Assembly (NCBI GenBank): GCA_965249185.1
Contig: CBDFLS010000001.1
Location: 445,918 to 509,917 of the forward strand
DNA from: Dehalococcoidia bacterium
Lineage (GTDB): Bacteria > Chloroflexota > Dehalococcoidia > Lucifugimonadales > Australimonadaceae
Length of the DNA: 64,000 nucleotides
Direction of reading: 5' to 3'
In this document: in pieces, positions 46,672 through 64,000 of the stretch
Numbering within the stretch: the stretch's first letter is position 1
How the letters are laid out: every line of letters starts with the position of its first letter
Translations under genes and position numbers: made by a program
The notes under the pieces: generated by a model
What the model saw: the letters and a program-made list of their open reading frames with translations, nothing else
Databases searched by the model: none
Told to the model about the DNA's origin: nothing

Positions 46672-46674
46672 GCC

Positions 46675-47812: not shown

Positions 47813-47860
47813 GTGCCCATCCAGGCAGGAGGATAGCTGACTCACTAAGGGGGTGAGCTG

Positions 47861-48654: not shown

Positions 48655-48656
48655 AC

Positions 48657-52316: not shown

Positions 52317-52366
52317 ATGCTGGCTAAGAGTCGCTACCTGCCAAGCCACTTGAAAGGACTCAGGGA

Positions 52367-52522
52367 ATGACTGCCAAAAGAGACACGAATCTGAAGGATA
52401 CGCTCACACAGGAACAAGCACAGCGCAAAGCTGTTGTGACCAAGATGCTTGCGGAGCGAGAGCAGCGCCAGCGAGTGTCCCATGAGGAGATAAGGAGGAT
52501 GCGCAGCGAGGGCCGCCACTAG
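52367..52522 (+). CDS. putative antitoxin (51 aa, charged), coupled to a PIN-toxin stub
   Basis: ...SHEEIRRMRSEGRH C-terminus; its stop overlaps the GTG of the PIN stub; family assignment weak. Confidence 0.4.
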   Translation: MTAKRDTNLKDTLTQEQAQRKAVVTKMLAEREQRQRVSHEEIRRMRSEGRH

Positions 52523-52568
52523 TGGCCATCGTCATTGATGCGTCCGTCGCGGCAGCTTGGTGTTTTCC
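52522..52568 (+). pseudogene. vapC (PIN-domain toxin) 5' stub, about 15 codons
   Basis: VAIVIDASVAAAWCF is the typical PIN N-terminal strand with the catalytic Asp. Homology ends at about 52568. Confidence 0.55.
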
Positions 52569-52683
52569 CCCTTATAGGGCTTGGAGCGCCGCCCCCGGGG
52601 TATATAATTCGCCCGAAGTCTAGGCTCGGCGATGGAAGAGGTAGAGGGAATGAGAAAAGATACAACACCGGCTGAAACAGAGG

Positions 52684-53190
52684 GTGGTGATGATCGGGCG
52701 ATGGCGAATATGGCGGCGGCTAGAGAAGAATGGTACGGCGAAGAAGTCCTATCGCGCTCAGCGGCGGACAGCGCTGAGGATCATGCGGGCAGTGGCGAAC
52801 GATCCACAGCGCATCTATGGTTTGTGGGCCTACCTTGCCGATTCCCATTATCATCTCGGCCCGTCGCCCACTCGATATGAGTGCCCCGCATGCAACCTCC
52901 ACCGTCGGCGGGTCCTGGCTGGCTATATTCAATCGCCTCTATCGTTTTATGACAAGCGAAAGCCGGGGTTCGCCGGCGCCTTTTATTTCTGTCGGATGTG
53001 CAAGTTCGCTGTGCCGTGTCCAACATGGGAGTTGGGGCTGGCGGAGTTGGGCGTCACGATGCGATGGCTGCTCCGTATCGCGTTCCCACGCAGCGGGACA
53101 AAAGGACTTGCTTCCGTGGACGAATTGGGCTGGCCTGCCGCCGCTACGGAGCGGGAGCGAGCGCTGGCTGCGCTAGACGCCCTTCGGTGA
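52684..53190 (+). CDS. Cys-rich hypothetical protein (first gene of the virus-like element)
   Basis: 168-aa ORF; CPACN...CRMCKFAVPC; start uncertain. Confidence 0.45.
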   Translation: MVMIGRWRIWRRLEKNGTAKKSYRAQRRTALRIMRAVANDPQRIYGLWAYLADSHYHLGPSPTRYECPACNLHRRRVLAGYIQSPLSFYDKRKPGFAGAFYFCRMCKFAVPCPTWELGLAELGVTMRWLLRIAFPRSGTKGLASVDELGWPAAATERERALAALDALR

Positions 53191-53545
53191 TGGTGACGTG
53201 GACCTGGCTCGTGGGGGTCAGCAGCAGGCGGGTGGCCGCTCCTCCATCGAAGGCCAGCCACCTGAGCTCCTGAAAGCCACCGAAGCTCGTTGTAACCACG
53301 GGGCCCTGAGCGTAGTAGACCGCGGGTTCTGTTCCTCCCCCATCGCTCGACACCTCGATCACCCACAGCCGGTCCGGGCTGGACAGGTCAACGAATCTGT
53401 CCGGTAGCGGCGCTACGGAGGGCGTAGGGGTCGGCTCGGTCGTCGCCGTGGCCCTCGGCAGTATGTCGATCACGCGCTGGTCCCCGCCGCCGCAAGCGGC
53501 CAGCAGTAACAGGGCCAGTACTGGTAAGAGAAGTCTCTTTTTCAT
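53144..53545 (-). CDS. lipoprotein
   Basis: MKKRLLLPVLALLLLAACGGG lipobox; 133 aa. Confidence 0.7.
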   Translation of the reverse strand: MKKRLLLPVLALLLLAACGGGDQRVIDILPRATATTEPTPTPSVAPLPDRFVDLSSPDRLWVIEVSSDGGGTEPAVYYAQGPVVTTSFGGFQELRWLAFDGGAATRLLLTPTSQVHVTITEGRLAQPALAPAP

Positions 53546-54207
53546 CGGGCAACTCCTGTCGCTTGGATATTCACGTCCTGGTCCACGAGCATGAACGGGT
53601 ACTTCCCCGTTGGGATCGGTATGAAAACCGCATAGGGGGCGGGCGGGTCATCGTTCGTTCGGAAGGTGATGGTGTAGACCACCGTTGCGGCCGTGGGCGC
53701 CGTGGTGGTGGCGTTGACCGCCGTGTCCCCATAACCGATCCGCACGGTGGTGGACGTGGCGGCCGCCGCCAACGGATGCCCTTGTAGGGACGTGATATAG
53801 AGGGTTTGGCCGGCGGGCACCACGTAGTCCGTGCCTTGGGGCGATTCGTAGGAGTCGTAGTAATCGGCGGTGACCGGCGAGGTGGAGTTGACCAGCGCGG
53901 TGACGCTGGGGAAGTCGCGTGTGGAGAGGCCCCCCACCTGCGCCGACGCCTGGAAACCGGCGAACACAAACACCGCCAGCACCACCGCCAGGCCGGCCCA
54001 GCTCGTCGGCAGGAAGCCTCGGACGCTCTTGCCCGTGATGAGCTGCCCCCAGTCGGCCATCATGGCGTCTATGAGCGCCACCAGCGTTACCAGCACCCCG
54101 CCGGCCAGCACCGCCAGCCCGAGGGGGGTATCGTTCAGCGCCGAGAAGCCGAAGATGGAGAGCCAGAGCCACGCCAGCAGCGCGGCCATGTGTGCGAGCG
54201 TGTTCAT
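53542..54207 (-). CDS. 3-TM membrane protein with beta-rich ectodomain
   Basis: 221 aa; overlapping ATGA-type junction with the lipoprotein gene. Confidence 0.55.
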   Translation of the reverse strand: MNTLAHMAALLAWLWLSIFGFSALNDTPLGLAVLAGGVLVTLVALIDAMMADWGQLITGKSVRGFLPTSWAGLAVVLAVFVFAGFQASAQVGGLSTRDFPSVTALVNSTSPVTADYYDSYESPQGTDYVVPAGQTLYITSLQGHPLAAAATSTTVRIGYGDTAVNATTTAPTAATVVYTITFRTNDDPPAPYAVFIPIPTGKYPFMLVDQDVNIQATGVAR

Positions 54208-54234
54208 TCGTCTGTCTCCTCCGTGAGCGCCTTA

Positions 54235-55317
54235 CTAAGCGGGAACGGGCGTTGCTTCCGTTGTGGGTTCTGCAAAGGTCTGCCCACCCTTCTTTACGAT
54301 GCGATAATTGTGCTGCTCCAAGACTCCCGCAAGCTCGCCGGCCGTCATGCCCGGCTCGAATAGCTGCGCCTCGGTCAAGGGCCGGCGGATGTTGAACGGC
54401 GTGGTCCTGCCGATCCACTGGGCCAGCACGTCATCCGCGTTCTGGGGCACGCTGGCCGTTGGGATCACAATGCCCGCCTCGACGCCTGAATAGTCATCGT
54501 CGAAGCGGCGTATGAGCTTGCCGGTGTGCCCCTTGACCGCCCACTCGTTGATCACCTGGGCGAACCGCTGCTCCTGGTCCTGGTACGTGGGCGGGATGTA
54601 CTCGTATCGGTCGTAGAGCCCGAAAACAGTGTTGACGTTCAGCAACTCCAGTGTCCAGTCCGCCTCCCAGAAGGGCGGTGGCCACGTCTTGCGCCAGAAG
54701 TTGCCGGTGACCTGCCCCCAGTAATCGTGAACGTAGAGCATGCACGAGCGGTTGTCCGGCTGGAGGTCGCACTCTATGAAATAGTCCACCTGGATGAGCA
54801 GTTGATAGTCCACCACCTGGGGAAACTGCGTCGTGAGCAGCACGTCCAGGCGTTGCTTCCGTAGCTGCGTAAGGTACTGGGAGAGCCCGACGTTATAGCG
54901 GCTCATGGACCGGCGGGACGAGGCGAACGACTGAATCTCGTCGATGCACATCAACCCATCCTTCACCTGCCCCATGTACCGGGGGTCCGTCACGGCGTCG
55001 AGTATGAAGGGGTCGGCGAAGTCGGCGATCTCGTTCCAGTAATTCGTGTAGATGCTCAGGCGCTTTTGGGATTTGGCGTATCGCGCCTTCATGATCTTGG
55101 AGAGCACCGTCAGCGTGAGTGTTTTGCCACGCCCGCGCCTGGCGAACATGAGCCCCACCGTTGGCGATCCGCCGCCGCCCTGCGCCCCCAGTTCCTCGGG
55201 GCGCCAGAGCGCCTTCACTGGATCGTCGGTGCCGGTTGCAAGGCTGGGCGGCCTGCTCGTATGGAACCGGGACATCATCGCGGCGCCCGTTGGCATCCGG
55301 CTCAGGGCCGTGCTCAT
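54235..55317 (-). CDS. Zot/pI-like P-loop morphogenesis ATPase
   Basis: Walker A ARRGRGKT, Walker B LMCIDEIQ, then LRKQRLDVLLTTQ, resembling the hRHxGxDhhhhTQ block of Zot-family ATPases. Confidence 0.6.
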   Translation of the reverse strand: MSTALSRMPTGAAMMSRFHTSRPPSLATGTDDPVKALWRPEELGAQGGGGSPTVGLMFARRGRGKTLTLTVLSKIMKARYAKSQKRLSIYTNYWNEIADFADPFILDAVTDPRYMGQVKDGLMCIDEIQSFASSRRSMSRYNVGLSQYLTQLRKQRLDVLLTTQFPQVVDYQLLIQVDYFIECDLQPDNRSCMLYVHDYWGQVTGNFWRKTWPPPFWEADWTLELLNVNTVFGLYDRYEYIPPTYQDQEQRFAQVINEWAVKGHTGKLIRRFDDDYSGVEAGIVIPTASVPQNADDVLAQWIGRTTPFNIRRPLTEAQLFEPGMTAGELAGVLEQHNYRIVKKGGQTFAEPTTEATPVPA

Positions 55318-55781
55318 TCGGGGTTCCCCGGCCTGTTCGTCGGAGGCGGTGCCTGCGCCCGCACCCTATCGGACGCCGGGGTGCTCACGCGGCCAGACAT
55401 GGCGAACTTCCGCGCCTCCCCGATGGCCACGGAGATCACCTGTTCGCGGCCAACCCCGCCGACGCTGTTTAGGACGGTGGCCTGGAAGTGCATGGACCGG
55501 AGCAGATCAACGTGCCCAGTCAACAGCCGTTGCTCGCTATTGAATATGCGGGTCCACCGCTGCGCCTTCGCCTCGTTGATATTCGTGCGCCCGCCCCAGT
55601 GGCCAATGTCCTCCGGCATCTCGGCGAGCTCGCGGCCCGGGTTCCACGAGGAGCCCGCCGGCCGCATGAATATCTCCTCTGTGGTGGGGATGCTTCCCCG
55701 CTGCTCGTCCTCTTTTGTGCTTACCACCACCTCGGGCTCTGGTGGCTGCTCTACAGTCTCTGCCTTGGCCTTTGCTGTCAT
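55314..55781 (-). CDS. hypothetical protein
   Basis: 155-aa ORF, operonic overlap with the ATPase gene. Confidence 0.45.
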   Translation of the reverse strand: MTAKAKAETVEQPPEPEVVVSTKEDEQRGSIPTTEEIFMRPAGSSWNPGRELAEMPEDIGHWGGRTNINEAKAQRWTRIFNSEQRLLTGHVDLLRSMHFQATVLNSVGGVGREQVISVAIGEARKFAMSGRVSTPASDRVRAQAPPPTNRPGNPE

Positions 55782-55783
55782 CG

Positions 55784-56509
55784 TTACCTCCCAGTCAGGG
55801 CGATGATGATAAAGAAGCCGATGCCGATGATGCTGAAGATGGCCATGAGGGGAATGCCGATGTCGAGCAGCGTGTCACGGAACGACTTGGGCAGCCGGTT
55901 CTCCTCGCGCCAGTCGCGTTGCTTCATCCATAGGTACAGGTGGTCCGAGCGATAAACCATCGGGGCGCTCGCCTCCGCGTTGGCCTGGTGCTCCTCCAGC
56001 TCCACGTAATCGGCGAGCAGGGGCTGTACCGAAACCGGCTCCAGGTGCGTCACCCCGTCCTCTATCCAGCGTCGGAATACCCATATGGGTTGGGGCTTGA
56101 ATCGGCCTCCGAATAGCCAGCCCAGAGCGGCGAGCGGGAGAGTCCCGACGGGCACGGCGGCGGCGGGAATAACCACGCTCCAGACCCAGGAGTTGTACCA
56201 CCAGAAGATCATGCTGCCCAGGATCGTGCCAATCAGACCTCCGATGAGGGCGGAGAAGATGCGCTTGGTGTTGTACGACGTGGGGCCGTACATCCCCCGG
56301 GTGGCCGTGGCCTTCAGCAGTTCGTCCCTGGGCACCGACGCTATCCATGTGTGCGGATGGTCCACGATGTAGACGGTATCTCGGATGACCTTCGGTGGCT
56401 TCGCCCGCCTCTCTTGTCCCGCCCTCCGTGTGAACCAGCCGCGGAGATTAGCCCTTAGCGCTTGTAGAAGCCCCGCCGAAGTGAGCCTGAGTCGTAGGGT
56501 GCGCTGCAT
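55784..56509 (-). CDS. 3-TM membrane protein
   Basis: 241 aa; hydrophobic helices at about residues 95-140 and the C-terminus. Confidence 0.5.
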   Translation of the reverse strand: MQRTLRLRLTSAGLLQALRANLRGWFTRRAGQERRAKPPKVIRDTVYIVDHPHTWIASVPRDELLKATATRGMYGPTSYNTKRIFSALIGGLIGTILGSMIFWWYNSWVWSVVIPAAAVPVGTLPLAALGWLFGGRFKPQPIWVFRRWIEDGVTHLEPVSVQPLLADYVELEEHQANAEASAPMVYRSDHLYLWMKQRDWREENRLPKSFRDTLLDIGIPLMAIFSIIGIGFFIIIALTGR

Positions 56510-56518
56510 CCGTTTCCC

Positions 56519-57010
56519 CTATCCTGCCGCCGGGCCGCCGCCCAGCCCCGACGTGATGAGAATAAAGCCGATGATGCCCAGGCCGACCATCGCGGCGATC
56601 ATCAGGGCGTTGAACCACATTCGGGTCGTCTCGGTGCGCTGCGTCGCCTCGGCGGCGCCCAGGTCCACATCGGCGAGCGTCACCTGGTGGGCCACCTTCA
56701 CTTCGAGTTGCGTCAAGGCCGGCTGCGCGGGGCCCTCGGGCATCATCGGGACTATCGTGTTGTCCTCGATGACGACGACCCGCCGGGACGAGGTTAAGTC
56801 CTCGTATGGCACTGGAGCCAGATCATATGAGGCCAGGTCGGCCACCGAGTCCACCAGGACGGGCTTGTTCGGTGCGAAAACGCGGTTCCTGGAGATGGTG
56901 TGGGCCTGGCGGTCGTGGTGGTTCTCCACCCACTTGTCCCTGATCTTCCCATTCCGAAACCGGAACCGCCCGCTTATATCAACGTACACGAGCTGTACTG
57001 ATTGTCCCAT
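56519..57010 (-). CDS. C-terminally anchored protein
   Basis: Start reassigned to the ATG at 57010 (AAAGGAAGC RBS): MGQSVQLVYVDISGRF...; C-terminal TM MWFNALMIAAMVGLGIIGFILI. Confidence 0.5.
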   Translation of the reverse strand: MGQSVQLVYVDISGRFRFRNGKIRDKWVENHHDRQAHTISRNRVFAPNKPVLVDSVADLASYDLAPVPYEDLTSSRRVVVIEDNTIVPMMPEGPAQPALTQLEVKVAHQVTLADVDLGAAEATQRTETTRMWFNALMIAAMVGLGIIGFILITSGLGGGPAAG

Positions 57011-57410
57011 GCTTCCTTTCCTTTTCGGCGCCAATCCGCCGCTCGACTTCGGCCTCCCATGCCGGCCAGTAAGCCTTCCCATTGAAGTTGATGATGTCCA
57101 GCTTCCCCGCTGTGTGAAGGACGAGTAGGTGGAGCACCCTGACCATATAGGCCTGGGATGGCCTGGAATCACCTGACAGCCACCTATAGATGGTAGAAAA
57201 CTGGGGCAAGGACAGAAACTTTGCGAATTGATAGGTGGATAGGCCGATCAGGTCTCGAATGGTGACGAGGGTATGGGTCGAGATGGCATGGGAGGCGTAC
57301 TTAGACGCCTGGAGCTGTCCATTGACGACCCGGTGCCAACTCCCGGCTCCGGCAGGCGCCGAGTCCGGGAACACGGCGACAGTCCGCTCCGTCAACGCCT
57401 CATTCGACAT
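56979..57410 (-). CDS. XRE-type HTH regulator
   Basis: LIGLSTYQFAKFLSLPQFSTIYRWLSGDSRPS helix-turn-helix; first gene of the minus-strand operon. Confidence 0.6.
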   Translation of the reverse strand: MSNEALTERTVAVFPDSAPAGAGSWHRVVNGQLQASKYASHAISTHTLVTIRDLIGLSTYQFAKFLSLPQFSTIYRWLSGDSRPSQAYMVRVLHLLVLHTAGKLDIINFNGKAYWPAWEAEVERRIGAEKERKHGTISTARVR

Positions 57411-57442
57411 ATGCTTGTCCGCTTCTATTGTATGACTGCCTA

Positions 57443-57488
57443 GTCACCACTTGGACTATACAACTGTTTGGTGACCGGCTCTTATAAT
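57443..57488. promoter_or_regulatory. divergent control region: 7-bp inverted repeat plus TATAAT
   Basis: GTCACCA (57443-49) / TGGTGAC (57469-75) separated by 19 nt, then TATAAT at 57483-88, within an AT-rich 136-bp intergenic gap. Confidence 0.4.
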
Positions 57489-57546
57489 ACAAAGGGGTAA
57501 TCGAAATGCACAACATATAGCGCATACAAGACAGTCTTGTCCGCCA

Positions 57547-57798
57547 GTGGTAGTGGTGGCTACTATCGCTCGCATGGGCGCAGGTCACCTCACAGCAGCC
57601 CTTGGTCTGGTCCTCGCGATAGTGGCGGGGCTGCTCATCGTCACCTCGGTATCGAGTCTCCAGACGATGGGGGAGGCCGAGGCCGGGGCTATCGGCACGT
57701 TTTTCACCCACCTCACACCCATCTTCGTCTACATGGTCAGTGGCGTTCTCGCCTGCGGGACGCTCATCGCCACGGTGCTGCTGGTGACGCGCCGGTGA
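57547..57798 (+). CDS. small 2-TM protein, coat-protein-like, basic C-terminus
   Basis: 83 aa (start uncertain); ...LVLAIVAGLLIV...IFVYMVSGVLACGTLIATVLLVTRR. Confidence 0.5.
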   Translation: MVVVATIARMGAGHLTAALGLVLAIVAGLLIVTSVSSLQTMGEAEAGAIGTFFTHLTPIFVYMVSGVLACGTLIATVLLVTRR

Positions 57799-57877
57799 AC
57801 AGGACACATAGGGGTCGTCGTGGAGTGATCACCCACAGAACCCCCAATCTTGGTGTAGGAAGGAGGCAACACCTTTT

Positions 57878-58138
57878 ATGGGATCAATTAAGAACAGCAT
57901 CATGGTCATCATCGCGGGGGTCATCACCTTTGTGGTGGGCCTGAGCCTGGCGAGCACCGTGCTCTCGCAGGCGGCTACTGCTGGGTCCGCAGCGACCATC
58001 GGGTCGTTTAGCGGAGCGCAGAGCTTGAACGACCTCACGCCGCTGCTGTACTACGCGATCATCATCTTCCTGGGGGTTTCGATGATGGCCGTGGGAGGCG
58101 CCGGTGTCAGCGGGAAAGGCCCCATGTCCAAGCGGTAA
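57878..58138 (+). CDS. small 2-TM protein with inovirus-major-coat-like architecture
   Basis: AGGAGG RBS; N-terminal hydrophobic segment, Ala/Ser/Thr/Gly-rich middle, second TM, basic tail GKGPMSKR. Confidence 0.55.
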   Translation: MGSIKNSIMVIIAGVITFVVGLSLASTVLSQAATAGSAATIGSFSGAQSLNDLTPLLYYAIIIFLGVSMMAVGGAGVSGKGPMSKR

Positions 58139-58256
58139 TCGGCCCATCGGGGCATGAGGGGCGTCGGACGGGCTTACCCGGCGCTCCCTCATGCCCCATC
58201 TTGGAAATGGCGGAGGCGGGGGAAAAATCCACATACCGCTGAATAGGGGGTAGAAG

Positions 58257-58358
58257 GTGCCAATTCGAAGGGTCAGAGTCAAGGCGGGTCACGGCCACAA
58301 GGCTTACACCCGTCGCGTGAGGGTGAAGGCAAAGCGGGCGACCAAGCGCCGCCGCTAG
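58257..58358 (+). CDS. 33-aa highly basic micro-protein
   Basis: (M)PIRRVRVKAGHGHKAYTRRVRVKAKRATKRRR; GGGGG box upstream; ends 9 nt before the next gene. Confidence 0.35.
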   Translation: MPIRRVRVKAGHGHKAYTRRVRVKAKRATKRRR

Positions 58359-58367
58359 AGGTGTCAT

Positions 58368-59870
58368 ATGCCGTTCCCGGCCCGATTCAGACTGACGCCA
58401 ATCTCCGTGCTCGCGCTCATCGCCCTGGGCCTCGTGGCGTTCCGGCTCGCCCTGTCCCTGGGCTTCGACGGGTATCTCGGCGTTGATGGTGGCGCCTATC
58501 TCCTGGGCCGCAACGCGGTACTGGGGGATGAGCCCACCGGAGCCGGGTTCCCGAGGCCCCCATTCGCACCCGGATGGCTCCTGGTGCCGTTCACGAGTGC
58601 CTGGGGCGATGACGTGGGCTATAAGGTGTGGGCGTCGGTCTTTTCATCCGTTCCTATCCTCTTTGGCTCGTTTCTGCTCGCCACGCGCTTCCTCCGTCCG
58701 TGGATCGCGGTGGCGATGTGCGGCTTCCTGGCCTTCGATCTCCTCCACGCTGAGATGTTCGTCACTGGCGGTCTCCCGCTGGTGGCCTTCGGCCTGATAG
58801 CCGTGGCTCTGTGGGCAGTGGTGGGGCTGGCGGAGCATGGCTGGCGGAGGCGCGAGGCACTGACGCTGGCCGTCGCTCTTCCATCGGTCGCGTACGTGAA
58901 TCAGACCAGCGCGGGCATCGCCGCAATAGCAATCCCCGCCCTGGTGCTCTTCTTGGTGCTCTGTGGCACCCCCGCCATACCGCTCTTGAAGCGCTTGGCG
59001 CTTCCCATCGGAGCTGGCGGCCTTCTGGCGCTGACGGCGCTGCCGTGGTATCTCTCCGTCGCCCCCGGCTCCTCGATACTCAGCTACCCAGGCCCGGTGG
59101 TCTACCTGAGCGGCTGGGGGTCCAGTGTGTGGCTCCAGTTCCTCATCGCCGTCCCGCTGGGAATCTTCGTATGGATGAAGGCCCCCAGGCCCGCCCTACG
59201 AGCGATTGGCGGCCTCGCCGTGCTCCACGGGACGCTCCTGTTGTTCCTGAGCGCTGATGAGACGGTCATCAACATCTTCTATCGCAGCCGGTACTTCGTC
59301 GCCATCCCGCTCTACATCTCGGCCGCGTGGGCCCTCTCCACCTACGCGCCCCGGTATTTCAGCCGGCGCGTGACCTACCCGCTGGGGGCGTACCTGCTCT
59401 CGTTCCTGATCATCGGGTCCATCTTCCAGTTCTATAACCAGTCGCGCTACTCGACGTTCATCACGCCCGACATGGTGCGGACCATCGAGCACCTGGAGGC
59501 CGGGGCCCCGGCTGGGCACGTCATCACCAATAACTTCTCGCAGGCGCTTTGGGTGGCGGGGCTGACCCGCCTGCCGGTCCACTACACATTCACCTGGGAG
59601 CCGCCGAGGGCGTTCACCGAGTCGGACAAGGACGTGCGCTGCGTTCTGGGCTGGGTTCCCGAGTGCGACGTTGCGGGGGCGGCGGGCAGGCTCGACGCCT
59701 CTTACGTCCTGATAGACACACGCTGGCCGTTGCCGTTCGGCAAGAGCTGGACCATCTACGGGGCGCCCTACGAGGAGCCGGAGCGCATCTGGGCGCTGAC
59801 GGCGGCGGCGCCGTGGCTGACGCCTGAGTATTCGGCGGGCTCCGTCCGCCTATGGAGGGTGAAGCTATGA
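58368..59870 (+). CDS. polytopic GT-C-fold-like glycosyltransferase (ArnT/PMT-like)
   Basis: 500 aa, about 11 TM segments, then a soluble C-terminal domain; family assignment by architecture only. Confidence 0.45.
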   Translation: MPFPARFRLTPISVLALIALGLVAFRLALSLGFDGYLGVDGGAYLLGRNAVLGDEPTGAGFPRPPFAPGWLLVPFTSAWGDDVGYKVWASVFSSVPILFGSFLLATRFLRPWIAVAMCGFLAFDLLHAEMFVTGGLPLVAFGLIAVALWAVVGLAEHGWRRREALTLAVALPSVAYVNQTSAGIAAIAIPALVLFLVLCGTPAIPLLKRLALPIGAGGLLALTALPWYLSVAPGSSILSYPGPVVYLSGWGSSVWLQFLIAVPLGIFVWMKAPRPALRAIGGLAVLHGTLLLFLSADETVINIFYRSRYFVAIPLYISAAWALSTYAPRYFSRRVTYPLGAYLLSFLIIGSIFQFYNQSRYSTFITPDMVRTIEHLEAGAPAGHVITNNFSQALWVAGLTRLPVHYTFTWEPPRAFTESDKDVRCVLGWVPECDVAGAAGRLDASYVLIDTRWPLPFGKSWTIYGAPYEEPERIWALTAAAPWLTPEYSAGSVRLWRVKL

Positions 59871-60082
59871 GACCTCAGTCTATAAAGAAGCGCCCCAGGC
59901 CGTCCGACTCCCGCGCGAGTCAGCGGGCGAAGCGGCCGGACAGGCGCTTGAAGGCTCGCATCCGGCGGCCCCGCGAGCGCCGAATGCACGACGAGTGGGA
60001 GCGTGTGTTCCGTGCCGGGATGGGGGCCACGGTGGTGATCATCGGTGGGAAGGCGCTGGCGAACGCCGCTAGCAAAGCATGA
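59867..60082 (+). CDS. 71-aa protein: Arg/Lys-rich N-terminus plus hydrophobic C-terminus
   Basis: ATGA overlaps at both ends; MRPQSIKKRPRPSDSRASQRAKRPDRRLKARIRRPRERR...GATVVIIGGKALA. Confidence 0.45.
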   Translation: MRPQSIKKRPRPSDSRASQRAKRPDRRLKARIRRPRERRMHDEWERVFRAGMGATVVIIGGKALANAASKA

Positions 60083-61167
60083 CAACCCTATCTTCCCGCT
60101 TGCCACTCCGCCTGCGCCTTGGGAGCACGGCCACGATGCGCCTGCTCTCACGCATTGTGCTGGGCGGCGCGATCAGCACTTCCTTTTTCGTTCCGCACTA
60201 CGCCCATTGGATGTTCGGCCTCTCCATCGGACTGCTGGCGCTCTCCATCGCCATCGGCGAGCCAAGGATGCCGCGCCGTGCCCCTCTGGTAGCCGTGGGA
60301 GTGATTACGGTGAGCATGGTGGCGGCGGTGCCCCTGAGCATCATCAACGGCGGCTTCTGGCCGGGCACAACGATCCTGGCCTTCTGGATGGTGCTCATGG
60401 CGGGTCTGTTCGCCGGGCCCGTCTCCTCCAGCATCCTGCCGATGCTCGTTTCTGCCTCGCTGGTCCAGGCGGCGGCCACAATCGCCCAGGGGCTCATCCA
60501 CCACGGGCAGGGGCTCCGTCAGTACGGGTTGATGAGCAACCCGAACCCCGCCGCCGGGCTCATGGCGGTGGGCGCCATCTACCTATTGACCACGAAGCGT
60601 TACCGCCCACTGGCCATCCCGCTACTGGTGGCGCTTCCTCTCAGCGGGTCCCGATGGGGCGTGGCGGTGGCCAGCGTGGTCCTGGTGGCGATGCTCGTGG
60701 CTCGCGCGGTTCCATGGAAGGCGTGGGTGGCCATCTTGGGGTGCAGCGTAGTACTCACCGTCCCATTCTGGGCGGACCTCGGCCACTCGTTACTGGGCAG
60801 GGGCACCGGCAGCGCCGAGCTGGGGGCTATCGCGGCGGTGGAGGCAGAGGCATTCACCCGCCTGTCCTCTAACGTCGCGCCCCAGCCGCTCCCCCGGGGC
60901 ATCTCGTATCAGTACGGCGCCCATTCAGCGCCCGTTCGGGTCGGCATTGAGGGCGGGATACTCTCGGCGCTGGCCTGGCTTTTCCTCTCCGGGTATGCCA
61001 TCTGGCGCGGGCATGGGGCCGTGCGCTGGCTCGCAATCGCGCTTTTGGGGCTCTCAATGCTCGACTACTACACCTGGCAGCCCTATCAGCTCTCGATGGT
61101 CTGGTGGCTCGTCATAGGCATCTCAGCGCGTAAGAATCGGAACATGGAGGCCCGTCATGGATCGTAG
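60079..61167 (+). CDS. O-antigen-ligase/Wzy_C-domain membrane protein (PglL/PilO-like candidate)
   Basis: GLMSNPNPAAGLMAVGAIYLL, LPLSGSRWGVAVASVVLV, AHSAPVRVGIEGGILSALAWLFL resemble Wzy_C blocks; about 10 TM segments. Confidence 0.55.
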   Translation: MTTLSSRLPLRLRLGSTATMRLLSRIVLGGAISTSFFVPHYAHWMFGLSIGLLALSIAIGEPRMPRRAPLVAVGVITVSMVAAVPLSIINGGFWPGTTILAFWMVLMAGLFAGPVSSSILPMLVSASLVQAAATIAQGLIHHGQGLRQYGLMSNPNPAAGLMAVGAIYLLTTKRYRPLAIPLLVALPLSGSRWGVAVASVVLVAMLVARAVPWKAWVAILGCSVVLTVPFWADLGHSLLGRGTGSAELGAIAAVEAEAFTRLSSNVAPQPLPRGISYQYGAHSAPVRVGIEGGILSALAWLFLSGYAIWRGHGAVRWLAIALLGLSMLDYYTWQPYQLSMVWWLVIGISARKNRNMEARHGS

Positions 61168-63283
61168 GGTTCTTTTCGTCCCGGCTATCATCGCGTTCAT
61201 CGCCATTGTGGCGCTCGCCCTGGCTCCCACGGTGCTCCAGAATGCCGCCAATACAGGCGGTGGTGGTGGCACCGGGTCCGTCTGGGCGGTCTGCTATCAG
61301 GAGCTCCGCAACCTCGTGGACCTCGTGCCGGTCATCTATTACGCGATGGTGGCGATGATCCTGGTTGCCGCCGTCGGCAGCGTGTGGCTCATCAACCGTC
61401 AGAACATGGGCGGCGGCGGGCTCGGCGGCGCGCAGGCGGGCTTCGCCCGCTGGCCCATCCTGGTGTTCGTGGCCATGTTCGCCATTGTCGCTGCGCTCAC
61501 CGTCCCGTCCACCGTGGGCTGGCAGAAGACGGTCAAGGCAGCGGTCACCACCTGCGTGCTCAGGGACGGCTCGCTGGCCATGACGGGCAACCTCCAGATG
61601 GGCGACTTCAATATCACCGGGGCTGATAGCATCGTGGCCACCAGCGGCACGGCGCTGTCTGTCCCCACCACCGGAACGACGTTCGCCACAACGGCCGGCG
61701 TCCAGACGCTCTCCAGTAAGACGCTCGTGGCCCCGGCCCTCGGCACGCCCGCATCTGGCGTGCTCACCAACGCCACCGACCTGCCGATCAGCACGGGGGT
61801 CTCGGGGCTGGCCGCCGGCGTGGCGGCCGCCCTTGGAACGCCCAGCAGCGCCAACCTGGCAACGGCGGTCACGGACGAGACTGGTTCGGGCCTGATCGTA
61901 TTCGCCACCAGCCCAACCCTCATTACTCCCGCCCTCGGCACACCGGCCTCGGGGGTGCTGACCAACGCCACCGACCTGCCGATCAGCACGGGAGTATCGG
62001 GGCTGTCCGCTGGGGTGGCGGCCGCCCTGGGGACACCCAGCAGCGCCAATCTCGCCACAGCGGTCACAGACGAGACTGGTAGTGGGCTGCTGGTGTTCGC
62101 AACCAGCCCCACCCTCACATCGCCGACTATCGCCACGTCCCCGACGGCGGCGGGAGCGACATGGGCCGACCTCGGGATCGTCTCATCGGTGGACATCAAC
62201 GGCGGGACCATAGACGGCGCCACGATAGGCGGGACCAGCGCGGGCGCCGGCACGTTCACCTCATTGAATCTCACGGGTGGCAACATATCCGGCGTCGGCA
62301 GCATCACATTGGATTCCATCATTGCCGACGCGACGGAGATCATCATAGATTCGGCTCAGGTTGGGACCAACATAGGGTCTGGCCCATCTGCAGGCGTCTA
62401 CTCCACCTTCCGTTACTCTAAAACAGCTTCAGCGGGTGGGGTTAGTGGACTGCGCTTGGGCGGAGTGCTCACGGCCGCTGCCAACGGCGACTCCATCCGG
62501 TTCATAGAAATGAGCGCGCTCGCTTCCACGGTGGCTTCCGGCACATTCACAGGGCTGTCGGGGGGCGGCATCTTCATGGCGCCGGGGAACTTCACCAAGA
62601 CTGGCTCTGGAACCATCGACACGTTCAGCGGCATCTACATCGCCAACGCGCCCACCATCGGAACCACCAACTGGGCCATGTACATAGACGCGGGCAACGT
62701 TCGCATCGATGGCGAGATCGGAGCATCGGGCACCCGCGTCTCGAAGATATGGACGGTGGACCAGGACACCACCAACGCCGAGGTCGTCTCCTCGTCGGAG
62801 CTGTTCAAGACGAACATCGTCCCCTACACGGGGAGCGCGACTGCCATCCTGCGCGCAGCGGAGGTCATCAAGTTCAAGCACGTTACCGACCTGGACCCGA
62901 GCGGGCGGCTGAAGCTGGGACTGGTCGCCGAGAGCCTTCAGACCGAGCCCACCATGACGCCCATCAAGAGCTACCCCGTAGGGTGGACTACAAAGACGGT
63001 ACGAAACGAGAAGGGGCAGAACGTCCAGGTGCAGGAGCCCACCTCATTCCAGGCTGCACCAGGAATCGACACCGGGGCCCTCTCTGCCGTTCTGGTCAAG
63101 GGATTCCAAGAGATAGAAGCCCGCGTGACCGACCTGGAGAAGACGAAGGGGACCCTCTCGAAGCGCCCACCATGCAACAACGGGAACAGGGGCAAGACCT
63201 TCACCGTGTTGACCCTGACGGGCGACCTTTTCCAGGTGTGTTTGAGGAGCGGGTCAGGAACCTACGATTGGGTCACGAAGTAG
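61157..63283 (+). CDS. membrane-anchored fibre protein with tail-fibre repeats and a C-terminal S74 intramolecular-chaperone-like domain
   Basis: 3 N-terminal TM helices; 2 x 65-aa repeat (LGTPASGVLTNATDLPISTGVSG...); SSSELFKTNIVPYTGSATAILRAAEVIKFKH...GLVAESLQ. Confidence 0.6.
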   Translation: MDRRVLFVPAIIAFIAIVALALAPTVLQNAANTGGGGGTGSVWAVCYQELRNLVDLVPVIYYAMVAMILVAAVGSVWLINRQNMGGGGLGGAQAGFARWPILVFVAMFAIVAALTVPSTVGWQKTVKAAVTTCVLRDGSLAMTGNLQMGDFNITGADSIVATSGTALSVPTTGTTFATTAGVQTLSSKTLVAPALGTPASGVLTNATDLPISTGVSGLAAGVAAALGTPSSANLATAVTDETGSGLIVFATSPTLITPALGTPASGVLTNATDLPISTGVSGLSAGVAAALGTPSSANLATAVTDETGSGLLVFATSPTLTSPTIATSPTAAGATWADLGIVSSVDINGGTIDGATIGGTSAGAGTFTSLNLTGGNISGVGSITLDSIIADATEIIIDSAQVGTNIGSGPSAGVYSTFRYSKTASAGGVSGLRLGGVLTAAANGDSIRFIEMSALASTVASGTFTGLSGGGIFMAPGNFTKTGSGTIDTFSGIYIANAPTIGTTNWAMYIDAGNVRIDGEIGASGTRVSKIWTVDQDTTNAEVVSSSELFKTNIVPYTGSATAILRAAEVIKFKHVTDLDPSGRLKLGLVAESLQTEPTMTPIKSYPVGWTTKTVRNEKGQNVQVQEPTSFQAAPGIDTGALSAVLVKGFQEIEARVTDLEKTKGTLSKRPPCNNGNRGKTFTVLTLTGDLFQVCLRSGSGTYDWVTK
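61733..62122 (+). repeat. 2 x 195-bp tandem in-frame repeat inside the fibre gene
   Basis: Units 61733..61927 and 61928..62122 encode PALGTPASGVLTNATDLPISTGVSGL(A/S)AGVAAALGTPSSANLATAVTDETGSGL(I/L)VFATSPTL. Confidence 0.85.
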
Positions 63284-63289
63284 GAACAT

Positions 63290-64000
63290 ATGCGCCTCTT
63301 GCGCCGGTTCATCCTCATAGGCTTGGTGGCAGCGCTCGCCCTGCTGACTGGGCGGGCGTTCGCCATCGAGCAGGCCACCATCGTGCAGGTCAACGACGTT
63401 TCGATCTTCCGCAACCTACTGGAAACGGGCGACTTCCTGGTGCTGGCCGAGTACCGCATCGAATACACCACGCTTCCCAGCGAGCACGCCGGCGAGGCGT
63501 ATATCGTCCGGCTGCTGGACGGGACCACCGAGAAGGCCAGAAACACGCCCTACCCGTTCAACGACATAGGCTACGGGTATGGGGTGGTCTCCATGTATCT
63601 GAGCGCCGCCGAGTTCACGTCCTCGGCGCTCACCTGGGGCACATCGGGCTACACCGTGCGGCTGGAGGGCAACCCCGGCCTCACCTTCACCGGCGGGCCC
63701 CAGGGCTACGACGAGACGATAGCGGCGGGCGATTACTCCACCGGCTCGACGGCCGCTACCAACATCGCGCAACTGGGCACGGAGGTGATCGCCATCGCAA
63801 CGGTGCTCCAGCAGCAATGGCAGATCACCATGCTCACCGAGGCGGGCAACCGGATCGCCACTGGGAACGCCACCAGCTACTTCACACTCGCCATCCCGGG
63901 CCTGCGCTCGATGGCACCGGACATCTTCGAGGTCACCACCACGGCGCCGACCTTCACCGATGATGTCCACCCATCCACGCTGGCGAACACGTCCCGCGAC
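63290..64000 (+). CDS. secreted hypothetical protein, 3' end beyond the window
   Basis: ATG 63290; signal peptide MRLLRRFILIGLVAALALLTGRAFA; frame stays open for 237 codons to the window edge; not in the ORF track because no stop is reached. Confidence 0.55.
   Translation, partial: MRLLRRFILIGLVAALALLTGRAFAIEQATIVQVNDVSIFRNLLETGDFLVLAEYRIEYTTLPSEHAGEAYIVRLLDGTTEKARNTPYPFNDIGYGYGVVSMYLSAAEFTSSALTWGTSGYTVRLEGNPGLTFTGGPQGYDETIAAGDYSTGSTAATNIAQLGTEVIAIATVLQQQWQITMLTEAGNRIATGNATSYFTLAIPGLRSMAPDIFEVTTTAPTFTDDVHPSTLANTSRD

What the first reader, a model, noticed from the sequence alone, without database searches (positions are those of the whole stretch)
52569..64000. Zot-ATPase-centred virus-like or filament-assembly element with no tailed-phage hallmark genes
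Two divergent, tightly coupled operons share a 136-bp AT-rich control gap.

Minus-strand operon (57410 to 53144):
- XRE-HTH regulator
- tail-anchored protein
- 3-TM protein
- 155-aa protein
- P-loop ATPase with ARRGRGKT, LMCIDEIQ and RKQRLDVLLTTQ (Zot/pI-like)
- 3-TM protein
- lipoprotein

Plus-strand operon (57547 to beyond 64000):
- two 83-86-aa proteins built like inovirus major coat proteins (hydrophobic N-terminus, Ala/Ser/Thr-rich middle, TM, basic tail)
- a 33-aa Arg/Lys peptide
- a GT-C-like enzyme
- a basic 71-aa protein
- a Wzy_C enzyme
- a 708-aa fibre
- a secreted protein

I see no terminase, portal, major capsid or tail genes, and no integrase, within 11.4 kb. The size, the dual-strand layout and the glycosylation genes are atypical for classical inoviruses. 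I cannot match this gene combination to any described family.
Basis: partly seen in the sequence, partly recalled or inferred. Interest (0 to 1): 0.85.

Follow-up and report, generated by a model that had tools for sequence, protein, structure and literature searches.

The report
Non-tailed budding-type provirus in Chloroflexota
This stretch is the particle-building half of an integrated, tail-less virus-like element in a probable Dehalococcoidia bacterium; its coat protein and assembly ATPase resemble those of archaeal spindle-shaped viruses and the recently described Dehalococcoides IME1 elements, and it also carries glycosylation-type membrane enzymes (one confirmed by fold, one probable).

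Summary
In detail: two tightly packed divergent operons flank a 136-bp, 44% GC gap, and no tailed-phage hallmark appears among the ORFs scanned.

- **ATPase (54235-55317).** It is Zot/pI-like by profile and by fold, with PDB 2r2a as best hit. It has no transmembrane segment. Its only hit among deposited phage genomes is the ATPase of Lokiarchaeota virus WyrdV1.
- **86-aa protein.** It is not shown to be an inovirus coat. It matches the SSV1 VP1 / His1 VP21 capsid family (hhalign E 2.7e-5; PHROG 11172).
- **p500.** It is a GT-C glycosyltransferase (AF2 pLDDT 95; best matches STT3, AftA, ArnT, PglB).
- **Conservation.** Eleven genes recur in metagenomic and IMG/VR relatives. Their replication and integration modules vary: PolA-UDG, AAA_25 helicase plus tyrosine integrase, or resolvase plus HNH.
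- **Boundaries.** A homologous resolvase and HNH lie upstream, next to tRNA-Asp. The left junction at 52570 cuts a vapC gene.

Best reading: the morphogenesis module of a dsDNA, membrane-assembled, probably non-lytic virus. It is related to the IME1 elements of Dehalococcoides (2026 preprint) and to archaeal spindle-shaped viruses.

It is a new variant of a recently described kind, not a classical inovirus. The right end lies beyond the window.

The parts
52323..52570 (+). vapB plus the first ~16 codons of vapC. This marks the left junction: vapC is cut after ...AAWCFP.
   Evidence: It is 98.8% identical to four Dehalococcoidia MAG loci, and only over 52323-52570. L010 has the intact 135-aa vapC. 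Just upstream, 52263-52320, is what looks (from memory of RecN sequences, no search run) like the first ~20 codons of recN.
53144..53545 (-). 133-aa protein with a lipoprotein-type N-terminus (LLAAC). Last gene of the ATPase operon; not conserved in relatives.
   Evidence: No family hit.
53542..54207 (-). m221: three N-terminal TM helices plus a ~120-aa beta-rich C-terminal domain. The TM part is the conserved small membrane partner encoded right after the ATPase in all relatives.
   Evidence: 47% identical to its L001 homologue. The N-terminal 55-60 aa match the 60-125-aa ORFs that follow the ATPase in L005, L006, L011, L018 and L021.
54235..55317 (-). Soluble Zot/pI-like P-loop ATPase, 360 aa, no TM segment. 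It has a small C-terminal alpha/beta domain.
55314..55781 (-). m155: conserved soluble protein encoded immediately upstream of the ATPase. Function unknown.
   Evidence: Conserved in L001, L005, L006, L011, L017, L018 and L021. No PDB or Pfam match.
55784..56509 (-). m241: conserved 3-TM membrane protein.
56519..57010 (-). m217: conserved tail-anchored protein, about 163 aa if it starts at M55.
   Evidence: Homology with L001 begins at residue 55. One C-terminal TM. Conserved in seven loci.
56979..57410 (-). XRE/Cro-type HTH regulator. First gene of the ATPase operon, next to the divergent control region.
   Evidence: Pfam HTH_3 E 0.049. PHROG repressor families E 0.0065-0.01. The family profile hits only XRE-type HTH proteins in the PDB (MBF1, HigA, Xre, Aca3), best E 0.0026. 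Conserved at this position in relatives.
57411..57546 (.). 136-bp divergent control region at 44% GC. By eye it holds a direct repeat CTTGTCCGC near each end and an inverted repeat GTCACCA-N19-TGGTGAC; neither was tested for significance.
   Evidence: Sequence. One weak sigma-70-like site at 57404-57431, not above the shuffle expectation.
57547..57798 (+). p83: small 2-TM hydrophobic protein. Candidate second structural membrane protein.
   Evidence: Conserved in L011, C20, L016/17 and L018. No significant similarity to p86 or to spindle-virus capsid proteins.
57878..58138 (+). p86: candidate major capsid protein, 2 TM, of the SSV1 VP1 / His1 VP21 type.
   Evidence: 57-62% identical to homologues in L011 and C20. 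PHROG 11172 E 2.3e-4 for the L011 homologue, 0.085 for the C20 homologue and 0.18 for p86, all on the same profile region.
58257..58358 (+). p33: 33-aa peptide with 15 K/R. Candidate DNA-condensing protein.
   Evidence: L021 has a 36-aa peptide with 16 K/R at the same position after the capsid-like gene. SSV1 has the gene order VP1-VP3-VP2; that VP2 is a basic DNA-binding protein is from memory.
58368..59870 (+). p500: GT-C-fold membrane glycosyltransferase, similar to oligosaccharyltransferases, ArnT and AftA.
   Evidence: More than 150 homologues, five of the 120 listed carrying Pfam PMT_2 PF13231. AF2 pLDDT 95.3, pTM 0.93. Foldseek against PDB: STT3, AftA, ArnT, PglB and AglB, E 3e-7 to 1e-4, TM 0.5-0.7.
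59852..60082 (+). p76: small basic protein, 22 K/R. Not detectably conserved.
60079..61167 (+). p362: conserved polytopic membrane protein, possibly Wzy_C / O-antigen-ligase-like.
   Evidence: Conserved in C20, L016/17, L018 and L021. No Pfam hit itself; its L018 homologue scores Wzy_C at E 0.46. hhalign against the L018 Wzy_C protein gives E 1.5e-3 and probability 17%, aligning the SR and H motifs.
61157..63283 (+). p708: candidate adhesin or fibre. It has an N-terminal p86-like two-helix module, a third TM, and two 65-aa tandem repeats (61721-62110).
   Evidence: The capsid-family HMM scores its N-terminus at 19 bits, the only other hit in the window. No Pfam or PHROG match.
63290..64000 (+). 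p_end: signal-peptide protein, truncated by the window end. Candidate spike or fusion protein; full-length homologues of 317-394 aa end in TM helices.
   Evidence: Homologues are in L006, L011, L018 and L021/22, and also in the more distant L002-L004.
41207..50023 (+). Possible second arm (integration, regulation, DNA-modification module). It runs from tRNA-Asp (41207-41285) through four HTH_17 gene copies, an N4/N6 DNA methylase (44256-45764), an HNH protein (46675-47469) and a serine recombinase (49475-50023).
   Evidence: Features. The HNH protein is 44-55% identical and the resolvase 44.6% identical to those of related element L017, in the same order. The resolvase is 49% identical to that of L002, and the methylase is similar to one in L003. 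GC dips to 55-63% here. Membership is not proven: an IS fragment, an EamA gene and the truncated recN-like reading frame lie between this arm and the element.

Best explanation
Positions 52571 to beyond 64000 are the virion-biogenesis and control module of an integrated dsDNA virus-like element. It may be partly rearranged. The host is a Chloroflexota bacterium, probably Dehalococcoidia.

The element belongs to a large, almost unannotated clade. The clade shares its two hallmark proteins with archaeal spindle-shaped viruses (SSV1, His1, wyrdviruses) and with the IME1 elements of Dehalococcoides.

Shown here:
- The ATPase is pI/Zot-like and soluble.
- p86 is a two-helix membrane protein of the SSV1 VP1 / His1 VP21 type.
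- p500 has the GT-C fold.
- An eleven-gene core is conserved, next to interchangeable replication and integration modules.
- vapC is interrupted at the left end.

Inferred mechanism:
1. The XRE-type regulator acts on the 136-bp divergent region and sets the switch between the two operons.
2. p86, and perhaps p83, insert into the cytoplasmic membrane.
3. The small basic peptides p33 and p76 condense the dsDNA.
4. The soluble ATPase docks on its membrane partners (m221 N-terminus, m241, m217). It drives delivery of the genome into a coat assembling at the membrane.
5. p708 joins the lattice through its p86-like N-terminus and serves as the terminal adhesin. p_end serves as a membrane-anchored spike.
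6. p500, a GT-C enzyme using a lipid-linked donor, and p362 glycosylate the exposed Ser/Thr/Ala-rich loops of the structural proteins.
7. Particles leave by budding or extrusion without lysis.

Particle shape, filamentous or spindle or pleomorphic, cannot be told from sequence.
For: ATPase:
- Pfam Zot E 4.9e-4; PHROG head-morphogenesis, Zot and M13 pI families.
- The 64-member family profile hits 2r2a at E 1.2e-6, ahead of ClpX at 4e-3.
- The AF2 model (pLDDT 85) has 2r2a as top hit at E 1.5e-8. In BFVD it matches AMDV2_16, Inoviridae Zot proteins, ATV ORF286 and an Acholeplasma phage L2 protein.
- The only tblastn hit in 50,697 phage records is the WyrdV1 ATPase, annotated 'related to pI' (27% identity, E 4e-5).
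- The family HMM hits the WyrdV1 ATPase at 6.5e-13 and His1 ORF16 at 4e-4.
- No TM segment, as reported for wyrdvirus and fusellovirus ATPases.

Capsid protein:
- PHROG 11172, the family that contains SSV1 VP1 according to the preprint, is hit by p86 and by its L011 and C20 homologues (E 0.18, 2.3e-4 and 0.085) on the same profile region.
- An HMM built only from the bacterial-element proteins ranks SSV1 VP1 (15.5 bits) and His1 VP21 (11-12 bits) first among 226 archaeal-virus ORFs. The next ORF scores 4.3 bits and the maximum over 4,520 shuffles is 8.8 bits.
- hhalign gives probability 74%, E 2.7e-5, over both helices. The alignments printed there also show a common L-x-(D/N)-L-x-P-L-x-Y motif, noted by eye.

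Conserved core and virus-like context:
- establish the core.
- L011 and C20 are IMG/VR viral contigs.
- Variable modules include PolA-UDG, MazG, ERCC4 and Sak4; AAA_25 helicase plus tyrosine integrase; and resolvase, HNH and methylases.

Other points:
- GT-C fold of p500.
- His1 has the same divergent layout, with the ATPase-like ORF16 operon facing the VP21, membrane-protein, spike and glycosyltransferase operon.
- The IME1 preprint reports the same hallmarks, dominance in viral-fraction metagenomes, and filaments in TEM.
- Insertion junction in vapC.
Against: - No virion, excision or circular form has been shown for this element. The right end lies outside the window.
- The capsid similarity is weak in absolute terms: 11-16 bits, hhalign probability 74%. 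It involves hydrophobic helices.
- The WyrdV1 capsid proteins themselves were not recovered by the HMM.
- No replication gene lies within 52571-64000.
- The region left of the element is scrambled: an IS fragment, an EamA gene, a truncated recN-like start and a vapC fragment. The copy may therefore be defective.
- Two relatives encode a prepilin peptidase, and p708 shares its N-terminus with p86. These are features of pilus systems.
- Glycosylation of virion proteins is an inference. The acceptor of p500 is unknown.
- Direct homology to the IME1 orthologous groups could not be tested.
Confidence: 0.65

Rival explanations
1. It is a true inovirus-type (Tubulavirales) filamentous prophage. A small ssDNA genome would replicate by rolling circle and be extruded through a pI motor, coated by pVIII-like p83 and p86.
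For: The ATPase is pI/Zot-like. Small hydrophobic proteins with basic C-termini are present. According to the preprint, Roux et al. 2019 binned IME1 contigs as Densinoviridae.
Against: - The ATPase lacks the TM and periplasmic part of pI.
- No HUH Rep was found in the window or in relatives.
- Relatives carry PolA-UDG or AAA_25 helicase and sit on contigs of 20 kb or more.
- p86 groups with SSV1 VP1 and His1 VP21.
- The visible part alone is 11.4 kb and is still incomplete.
Confidence: 0.07
2. It is a non-viral surface filament or pilus-like system with its own glycosylation enzymes, carried on a mobile island. p86 would be the major subunit, p708 a tip adhesin with a subunit-like N-terminus, and the ATPase the assembly motor.
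For: p708 and the L018 beta-helix protein share the p86-like N-terminal module. L016 and L017 encode a Peptidase_A24 prepilin peptidase in the same operon. GT-C and possible Wzy_C enzymes sit next to the subunit genes. From memory, not tested here: O-oligosaccharyltransferases of the PglL/PilO type glycosylate pilins.
Against: - There is no PilB/TadA-type ATPase and no platform protein.
- The module always travels with replication and integration genes, often on free 15-36 kb contigs.
- Two relatives are in IMG/VR.
- The subunit is related to viral capsid proteins.
- Related IME1 DNA is enriched in viral fractions.
Confidence: 0.12
3. It is a defective remnant or a satellite. The copy no longer forms particles on its own, or needs a helper virus.
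For: The left flank is scrambled, with an IS fragment and truncated vapC and recN-like sequences. No replication gene is seen in 52571-64000. The related locus L016 has its ATPase operon cut by an IS3 element. The satellite idea was raised earlier for IME1.
Against: All eleven core ORFs are intact and tightly coupled. A 98%-identical second ATPase copy is recorded on a contig of the same length, which suggests recent activity. The element encodes its own candidate structural and assembly genes.
Confidence: 0.12
4. It is one arm of an ordinary tailed prophage, with head and tail genes lying beyond 64000.
For: The window ends inside the element. One relative, C20, has a collagen-repeat protein that hits tail-fibre PHROGs.
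Against: None of the related loci (L001, L006, L011, C20, L016-L018, L021/22, together over 100 kb) shows a terminase, portal or capsid hit, either in precomputed Pfam calls or in my scans. The collagen hits are repeat-driven.
Confidence: 0.03

Closest known systems
IME1 elements of Dehalococcoides mccartyi and Dehalogenimonas (Nesbo et al., bioRxiv 10.64898/2026.09.15.751708). According to that preprint, Roux et al. 2019 classed them as Densinoviridae Sf_3.
   Same: - Chloroflexota host.
- Integrated element without tailed-phage hallmarks.
- pI-like ATPase.
- Several small TM proteins, one of them like SSV1 VP1 / PHROG 11172.
- Repressor-type HTH at a strand switch.
- Serine resolvase and HNH genes.
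- Proposed dsDNA, non-lytic budding or filamentous lifestyle.
   Different: - In IME1 the five TM genes lie directly downstream of the ATPase. Here the capsid-like genes sit in the divergent operon.
- No GT-C or Wzy-like genes are reported for IME1.
- The IME1 core includes a 5' tyrosine recombinase, an archaeal primase-helicase, and CARDB and PEP-CTERM proteins. None of these is seen in the window.
- The metagenomic loci L002-L004, which pair a resolvase with a DUF927 protein, have ATPases only about 26% identical to this one. Whether they are IME1-like is a guess.
Archaeal spindle-shaped viruses: Fuselloviridae (SSV1), Halspiviridae (His1) and the wyrdviruses of Asgard archaea
   Same: - Tandem ~80-aa two-helix capsid proteins.
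- A small basic protein encoded after the capsid genes, as VP2 is in SSV1.
- A large adhesin.
- A pI-like ATPase without TM.
- Divergent ATPase and capsid operons, and a glycosyltransferase, as in His1.
- Glycosylated capsid proteins in SSV1: the only support is the title of Quemin et al. 2015, as listed.
   Different: - The host here is bacterial.
- Similarities are remote: ATPase 27% identity, capsid protein 11-16 bits.
- The other core genes (m217, m241, m155, p83, p362, p_end) have no detectable archaeal-virus homologues.
- The glycosylation enzyme is GT-C rather than the GT4 type of His1.
- Morphology is unknown.
Inoviridae / Tubulavirales (Ff, CTXphi; pI/Zot)
   Same: An ATPase of the Zot/pI family, with 2r2a as the top structural and profile hit. 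Membrane-inserted small structural proteins. Presumed non-lytic release.
   Different: No TM segment in the ATPase. No HUH Rep. A much larger dsDNA-type gene content in relatives. The coat-like protein is related to VP1/VP21, and no relationship to pVIII was shown.

Membership tests
Zot/pI-like morphogenesis ATPases (Pfam PF05707) | Sequence or profile match to the Zot P-loop domain | tested here: met
   Pfam Zot at 20.1 bits, against a cutoff of 20.3 (E 4.9e-4). The distant relative L002 scores 26.4 bits. The family profile hits PDB 2r2a at E 1.2e-6.
Zot/pI-like morphogenesis ATPases (Pfam PF05707) | Fold closest to the Zot N-terminal domain | tested here: met
   The AF2 model (pLDDT 85) has 2r2a as top hit at E 1.5e-8, TM 0.60; the next hit is at 6e-6. 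Inoviridae Zot proteins are among the top BFVD hits.
Zot/pI-like morphogenesis ATPases (Pfam PF05707) | Transmembrane segment and periplasmic C-terminal part, as in Ff pI and Zot | tested here: not met
   No hydrophobic segment in 360 aa. A separate small TM protein is encoded immediately downstream in every relative.
Inoviridae / Tubulavirales | Rolling-circle (HUH) replication initiator and a small ssDNA-size genome of about 4-12 kb | tested here: not met
   No Rep was found in the window part. Relatives carry PolA-UDG, AAA_25 helicase or a winged-HTH Rep-like protein, on contigs of 11 to 36 kb. The nature of the packaged nucleic acid cannot be tested with these tools.
Spindle-shaped-virus major capsid protein (SSV1 VP1/VP3, His1 VP21; PHROG 11172) | An ~80-aa protein with two hydrophobic helices and detectable profile similarity | tested here: met
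   Topology. PHROG 11172 E 2.3e-4, 0.085 and 0.18. HMM ranks VP1 and VP21 above all other ORFs and above 4,520 shuffles. hhalign probability 74%, E 2.7e-5. The support is moderate, not strong.
Spindle-shaped archaeal viruses (Fuselloviridae, Halspiviridae, wyrdviruses) | Archaeal host and spindle-shaped virion | tested here: not met
   The host is most likely Dehalococcoidia: the vapB-vapC' fragment at the junction is 98.8% identical to Dehalococcoidia MAGs. Morphology is not testable.
IME1 (Nesbo et al. 2026) | pI-like ATPase plus small TM proteins with a VP1-like member, in a Chloroflexota genome | tested here: met
   and 30/33, compared with the description.
IME1 (Nesbo et al. 2026) | 5' tyrosine recombinase, SSR resolvase, archaeal primase-helicase and a terminal repressor | tested here: inconclusive
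No tyrosine recombinase or primase-helicase was found in the ORFs scanned at 41-64 kb. The right part of the element is missing. Relative L021 has a tyrosine integrase and an AAA_25 helicase.
IME1 (Nesbo et al. 2026) | Orthology to the 14 conserved IME1 HOGs | not testable with these tools
   No IME1 sequence could be retrieved and the supplementary tables are not held.
GT-C glycosyltransferases (p500) | GT-C membrane fold, and family-profile hits among homologues | tested here: met
   AF2 pLDDT 95.3. Foldseek hits STT3, AftA, ArnT, PglB, AglB and DPY19 at E 3e-7 to 1e-4. PF13231 (PMT_2) is precomputed on 5 of the 120 listed homologues. Invariant acidic residues lie in the first loop: D40 and E55 among three sequences, with D40 at 90% or more across 69.
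Wzy_C / O-antigen ligase superfamily (p362) | Pfam PF04932 match | tested here: inconclusive
   No hit for p362. Its L018 homologue scores E 0.46. hhalign against a bona fide Wzy_C protein of L018 gives E 1.5e-3, probability 17%, and aligns the S-R and H motifs.
Type IV pilus / Tad-type filament systems | PilB/TadA secretion ATPase, polytopic platform protein, prepilin peptidase | tested here: not met
   The ATPase is Zot-like. No platform protein was found. Peptidase_A24 occurs only in relatives L016 and L017, not in the window.
Caudoviricetes prophage | Terminase, portal, HK97 capsid and tail genes | tested here: not met
   None is found in the window ORFs scanned or in any related locus. 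Sequence beyond 64000 was not seen.

The most novel reading that the evidence does not exclude
The element represents a large, family-level clade of bacterial dsDNA viruses: at least 145 ATPase clusters at 50% identity and more than 150 p500 homologues. These would be true evolutionary relatives of archaeal spindle-shaped and budding viruses, sharing the VP1/VP21-type capsid protein and a TM-less pI-like ATPase. Unlike any described virus of that assemblage, they would carry their own oligosaccharyltransferase-like GT-C enzyme, plus a Wzy-like partner, to glycosylate virion proteins on the outer face of the host membrane. That would extend a virion architecture thought to be archaea-specific across the domain boundary. 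It would also be a rare case of a virus-encoded protein-glycosylation system that uses lipid-linked donors.
Probability: 0.35. Interest if true: 0.85.

Novelty: new variant of a known kind. Interest (0 to 1): 0.66.

Why it matters
Almost all known bacterial viruses are tailed, icosahedral or inovirus-type. Spindle-shaped and pleomorphic budding viruses built from small two-helix membrane proteins have been treated as an archaeal speciality.

One 2026 preprint argues that Dehalococcoides IME1 elements break that rule. This window adds an independent and much larger clade with the same two hallmark proteins:
- It has a defined eleven-gene core.
- Its replication modules are interchangeable: PolA, helicase, or resolvase.
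- It carries a conserved GT-C glycosyltransferase.

The clade offers sequence anchors for finding such viruses in metagenomes. It also gives a testable link between archaeal and bacterial viromes, and a candidate virus-encoded glycosylation system. From memory, not tested here: some Dehalococcoidia lack peptidoglycan, which would make budding plausible.

Tried and rejected
1. Extending the contig failed. Exact look-ups of the window ATPase, of P0001 and of p708 all returned 'not on record', so the right end was not seen.
2. Scans with the ATPase found nothing in genome contigs and nothing in the first viral-contig scan. The 64-sequence alignment was too diverse to seed a scan.
3. The word-index protein search found only 2-3 ATPase relatives. 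The exhaustive HMMER search was needed to reveal the family.
4. tblastn of the ATPase against plasmids gave no match. tblastn of the p86 homologue against phages gave no match, probably because of the low-complexity filter.
5. PDB sequence searches with the p500, p362, p_end and m155 family profiles gave nothing useful.
6. No copy of the tRNA-Asp 3' end, and no other att-like direct repeat, was found between 40.8 and 64 kb.
7. p83 as a paralogue of p86 or of spindle capsid proteins is not supported.
8. From memory I suspected a Peptidase_S74-type chaperone domain at the C-terminus of p708. Pfam gave no hit, so I dropped it.
9. Pfam on the m221 C-terminal domain gave only LtfC-like at E 0.15, which is not usable.
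10. The supplementary tables of the IME1 preprint are not held.

Full report
**1. Observation**

The last one starts at 63290 and runs off the window.

- Neighbouring genes overlap by 4-19 nt or sit a few bases apart.
- The two operons diverge from a 136-bp gap (57411-57546) of 44% GC, in a 58-67% GC background.
- Pfam and PHROG scans of the ten ORFs of 133 aa or more give no terminase, portal, capsid, tail or integrase. p83, p86, p76 and the last ORF gave no such PHROG hit either. p33 was not scanned.

**2. The ATPase**

- Pfam Zot scores 20.1 bits against a 20.3 cutoff. The PHROG hits are a head-morphogenesis family, Zot-like toxin and M13 protein I.
- The word-indexed protein search found only a 98% copy and one 46% relative. 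An exhaustive HMMER search of 1.84 billion cluster representatives found 781 relatives. Of these, 145 score below 1e-30, and most of those listed are 320-400 aa long.
- A profile of 64 members hits PDB 2r2a at E 1.2e-6, well ahead of ClpX-type AAA+ proteins. 2r2a is the N-terminal domain of Neisseria Zot.
- An AF2 model (pLDDT 85) has 2r2a as its top structural match at E 1.5e-8.
- In BFVD the best matches are AMDV2_16, Inoviridae Zot proteins, ATV ORF286 and a protein of Acholeplasma phage L2.
- Among 50,697 deposited phage and archaeal-virus genomes, the only tblastn hit is the ATPase of Lokiarchaeota virus WyrdV1 (27% identity, E 4e-5). Its depositors annotated it as related to pI.
- The family HMM also reaches His1 ORF16 at E 4e-4.
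- Like the wyrdvirus and fusellovirus ATPases described, and unlike pI and Zot, it has no TM segment. A small TM protein, the N-terminal part of m221, is encoded right after it in every relative.

**3. The small proteins**

p86 has 57-62% identical homologues in two IMG/VR contigs.

- p86 and these two homologues all hit PHROG 11172 on the same profile region. The best E-value is 2.3e-4, for the L011 homologue. According to the IME1 preprint, this PHROG contains SSV1 VP1.
- I built an HMM only from the bacterial-element proteins. It ranks SSV1 VP1 (15.5 bits) and His1 VP21 (11-12 bits) first among 226 ORFs of SSV1, His1 and WyrdV1.
  - The next real ORF scores 4.3 bits.
  - The best of 4,520 shuffled ORFs scores 8.8 bits.
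  - In the whole window, only p86 (97 bits) and the N-terminus of p708 (19 bits) score.
- hhalign of the two alignments gives probability 74% and E 2.7e-5 over both helices. The alignments also show a shared L-x-(D/N)-L-x-P-L-x-Y motif, noted by eye.

I take p86 to be a VP1/VP21-type capsid protein, with moderate confidence. p83 is a distinct conserved 2-TM family with no significant link to p86.

p33 has a positional analogue in L021: 36 aa with 16 K/R. This parallels the VP1-VP3-VP2 gene order of SSV1.

**4. Glycosylation genes**

- *p500.* It has more than 150 homologues, and five of the 120 listed carry Pfam PMT_2. With a 69-sequence alignment AF2 gives pLDDT 95.3. Foldseek returns STT3/OST, AftA, ArnT, PglB, AglB and DPY19, with E 3e-7 to 1e-4 and TM 0.5-0.7.
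- *p362.* It is conserved in five relatives but has no Pfam hit. An alignment to a bona fide Wzy_C protein of L018 lines up the S-R and H motifs, at E 1.5e-3 and only 17% probability. 'Wzy_C' is therefore plausible but unproven.

**5. Relatives and the conserved core**

The related loci are:

| Locus | Source | Size |
|---|---|---|
| L001 | Logan contig | 4.9 kb |
| L005 | JGI contig | 3.6 kb |
| L006 | Logan contig | 15.9 kb contig, 11.4 kb read |
| L011 | IMG/VR UViG 3300020447_000048 | 10.8 kb |
| C20 (L012 + L014) | IMG/VR UViG 3300023284_001445 | 20.2 kb |
| L016 | chromosomal, in a 918-kb contig | 21.5 kb read |
| L017 | ENA contig | 15.6 kb |
| L018 | NCBI contig | 20.5 kb |
| L021 / L022 | ENA contigs | 20 and 14.6 kb |

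Iterative HMM searches across these loci show eleven window genes recurring together:
- the XRE-type regulator
- m217
- m241
- m155
- the ATPase
- the m221 N-terminal part
- p83
- p86
- p500
- p362
- p_end

Wherever both operons are visible they diverge from the same point.

The flanking modules differ between relatives:
- L011: serine recombinase plus a winged-HTH, Rep-like protein (these labels are my reading of the translations, and the Pfam scan of the L011 proteins failed).
- C20: PolA fused to UDG, MazG, ERCC4, a Sak4-like protein and a SAM methyltransferase.
- L021: AAA_25 helicase plus a tyrosine integrase.
- L016 and L017: resolvase, HNH, DNA methylases and a Peptidase_A24.

None of these loci has a tailed-phage hallmark. 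A conserved morphogenesis block beside exchangeable replication and integration blocks is the pattern expected of a virus family.

A more distant group, L002-L004, has ATPases about 26% identical. It still has tandem p86-like genes, p_end homologues, a giant 2,123-aa protein, a resolvase and a DUF927 protein.

**6. Boundaries and host**

- The stretch 52323-52570 (vapB plus 16 codons of vapC) is 98.8% identical to four Dehalococcoidia MAGs, and only over that stretch. In L010 vapC is intact. The window diverges after ...TTTTCCCC at 52570.
- Just upstream, what looks from memory like a recN start (52263) is cut after about 20 codons. An IS fragment abuts an EamA gene. The flank has been rearranged.
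- Further left, a lower-GC island starts at tRNA-Asp (41207-41285). It holds four copies of an HTH_17 gene, an N4/N6 methylase inside a 2.4-kb duplication, an HNH protein and a serine recombinase.
  - The HNH protein is 44-55% identical, and the resolvase 44.6% identical, to those of L017, in the same order.
  - The resolvase is 49% identical to that of L002. The methylase resembles one in L003.
  - This island may be the other arm of the same element, or part of a second element. I found no att repeat within the window.
- The window ATPase (P0003) and its 98% variant (P0001) are each recorded on one contig of 512,206 nt. This suggests two copies in one genome, but I could not verify it.

**7. 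Comparison with what is known**

A preprint of September 2026 (10.64898/2026.09.15.751708) describes IME1 elements of Dehalococcoides:
- They are 21-28 kb, found both integrated and as circles.
- They have no tailed-phage hallmarks.
- They carry a pI-like ATPase and small TM proteins whose best structural match is SSV1 VP1.
- They have a repressor on the opposite strand, a tyrosine recombinase, a resolvase, a primase-helicase and HNH genes.
- They dominate viral-fraction metagenomes, and TEM shows abundant filaments.
- Roux et al. 2019 had binned them as Densinoviridae.

The window element shares the hallmarks and the host phylum. It differs in gene order and in carrying the GT-C and p362 genes and p_end. 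Orthology could not be tested.

The second reference point is the archaeal spindle-shaped viruses. WyrdV1 has two tandem His1-like capsid proteins, an adhesin and a TM-less pI-like ATPase. His1 has the same divergent ATPase and capsid layout, and a glycosyltransferase.

**8. Verdict**

The element is not inovirus-like in its coat protein or in the likely nature of its genome, and a closely comparable class has now been described.

I rate it a new variant of a known kind. It has real interest because it defines a large second clade with a virus-encoded GT-C enzyme.

The mechanism remains inferred: membrane assembly of a VP1-like coat, driven by the soluble ATPase on membrane partners, with glycosylation and non-lytic release. 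Particle shape and the packaged nucleic acid are unknown.

Noticed in passing
window 41286-46400: Directly after tRNA-Asp there are four ~300-nt copies of an HTH_17 (excisionase-like) gene at 80-92% identity. A 2.4-kb duplication also brackets the N4/N6 DNA methylase: 43367-43666 and 45800-46099, each followed by a near-identical 100-aa membrane ORF.
   Followed up: partly
window 52323-52570 and loci L007-L010: A 247-bp vapB-vapC' fragment is 98.8% identical in four different Dehalococcoidia MAG species representatives. The flanks differ on both sides; an IS3-type transposase lies upstream in L010. The toxin-antitoxin cassette appears to be moving horizontally.
   Followed up: partly
window 52263-52320: A reading frame starting MLLELTVRNFAVIEEARL is cut off after about 20 codons by the vapB fragment. 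From memory it looks like the start of recN; I ran no search on it.
   Followed up: no
window 50890-51441 and 48028-48654: There is a truncated DDE_Tnp_1_4 transposase, 183 of about 435 aa, running into the start of an EamA gene. An ORF with an ENV motif looks like a fragment of a cytosine-5 DNA methylase; that reading is from the sequence only and is untested.
   Followed up: no
L016 11621-12175 and L017 5860-6414: Two related elements encode a Peptidase_A24 (prepilin-peptidase family) protein right after the GT-C gene. This suggests that some small structural proteins of this clade are processed like type IV pilins or archaellins. The window has no such gene.
   Followed up: partly
L018 (NCBI JAWCRR010000026.1, binned as Candidatus Nitrosotenuis): A 20.5-kb contig carries the full core plus a beta-helix protein with a p86-like N-terminus and a clear Wzy_C protein. 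Its GC is 66.6%, which I recall as far above that genus, so it is probably mis-binned. If it is not, the clade reaches Thaumarchaeota.
   Followed up: partly
C20 = L012 12156-15548: A 1,130-aa fusion of a uracil-DNA-glycosylase-family domain, a 3'-5' exonuclease and a family A DNA polymerase sits in a relative of the element. MazG, ERCC4 and Sak4-like genes lie next to it.
   Followed up: no
window 61721-62110: p708 contains two tandem 195-nt (65-aa) repeats at 83% identity, in its Ala/Thr/Ser/Gly-rich middle part.
   Followed up: no
window 54235-54420 (ATPase residues ~294-351): The AF2 model shows a separate small C-terminal domain of three helices and a beta-hairpin. It looks like a winged helix and could bind DNA. 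It was not searched on its own.
   Followed up: no
window 57411-57546: By eye, the divergent control gap contains CTTGTCCGC near both ends and the inverted repeat GTCACCA-N19-TGGTGAC. These are candidate operators for the XRE-type regulator. They were not tested against relatives.
   Followed up: no
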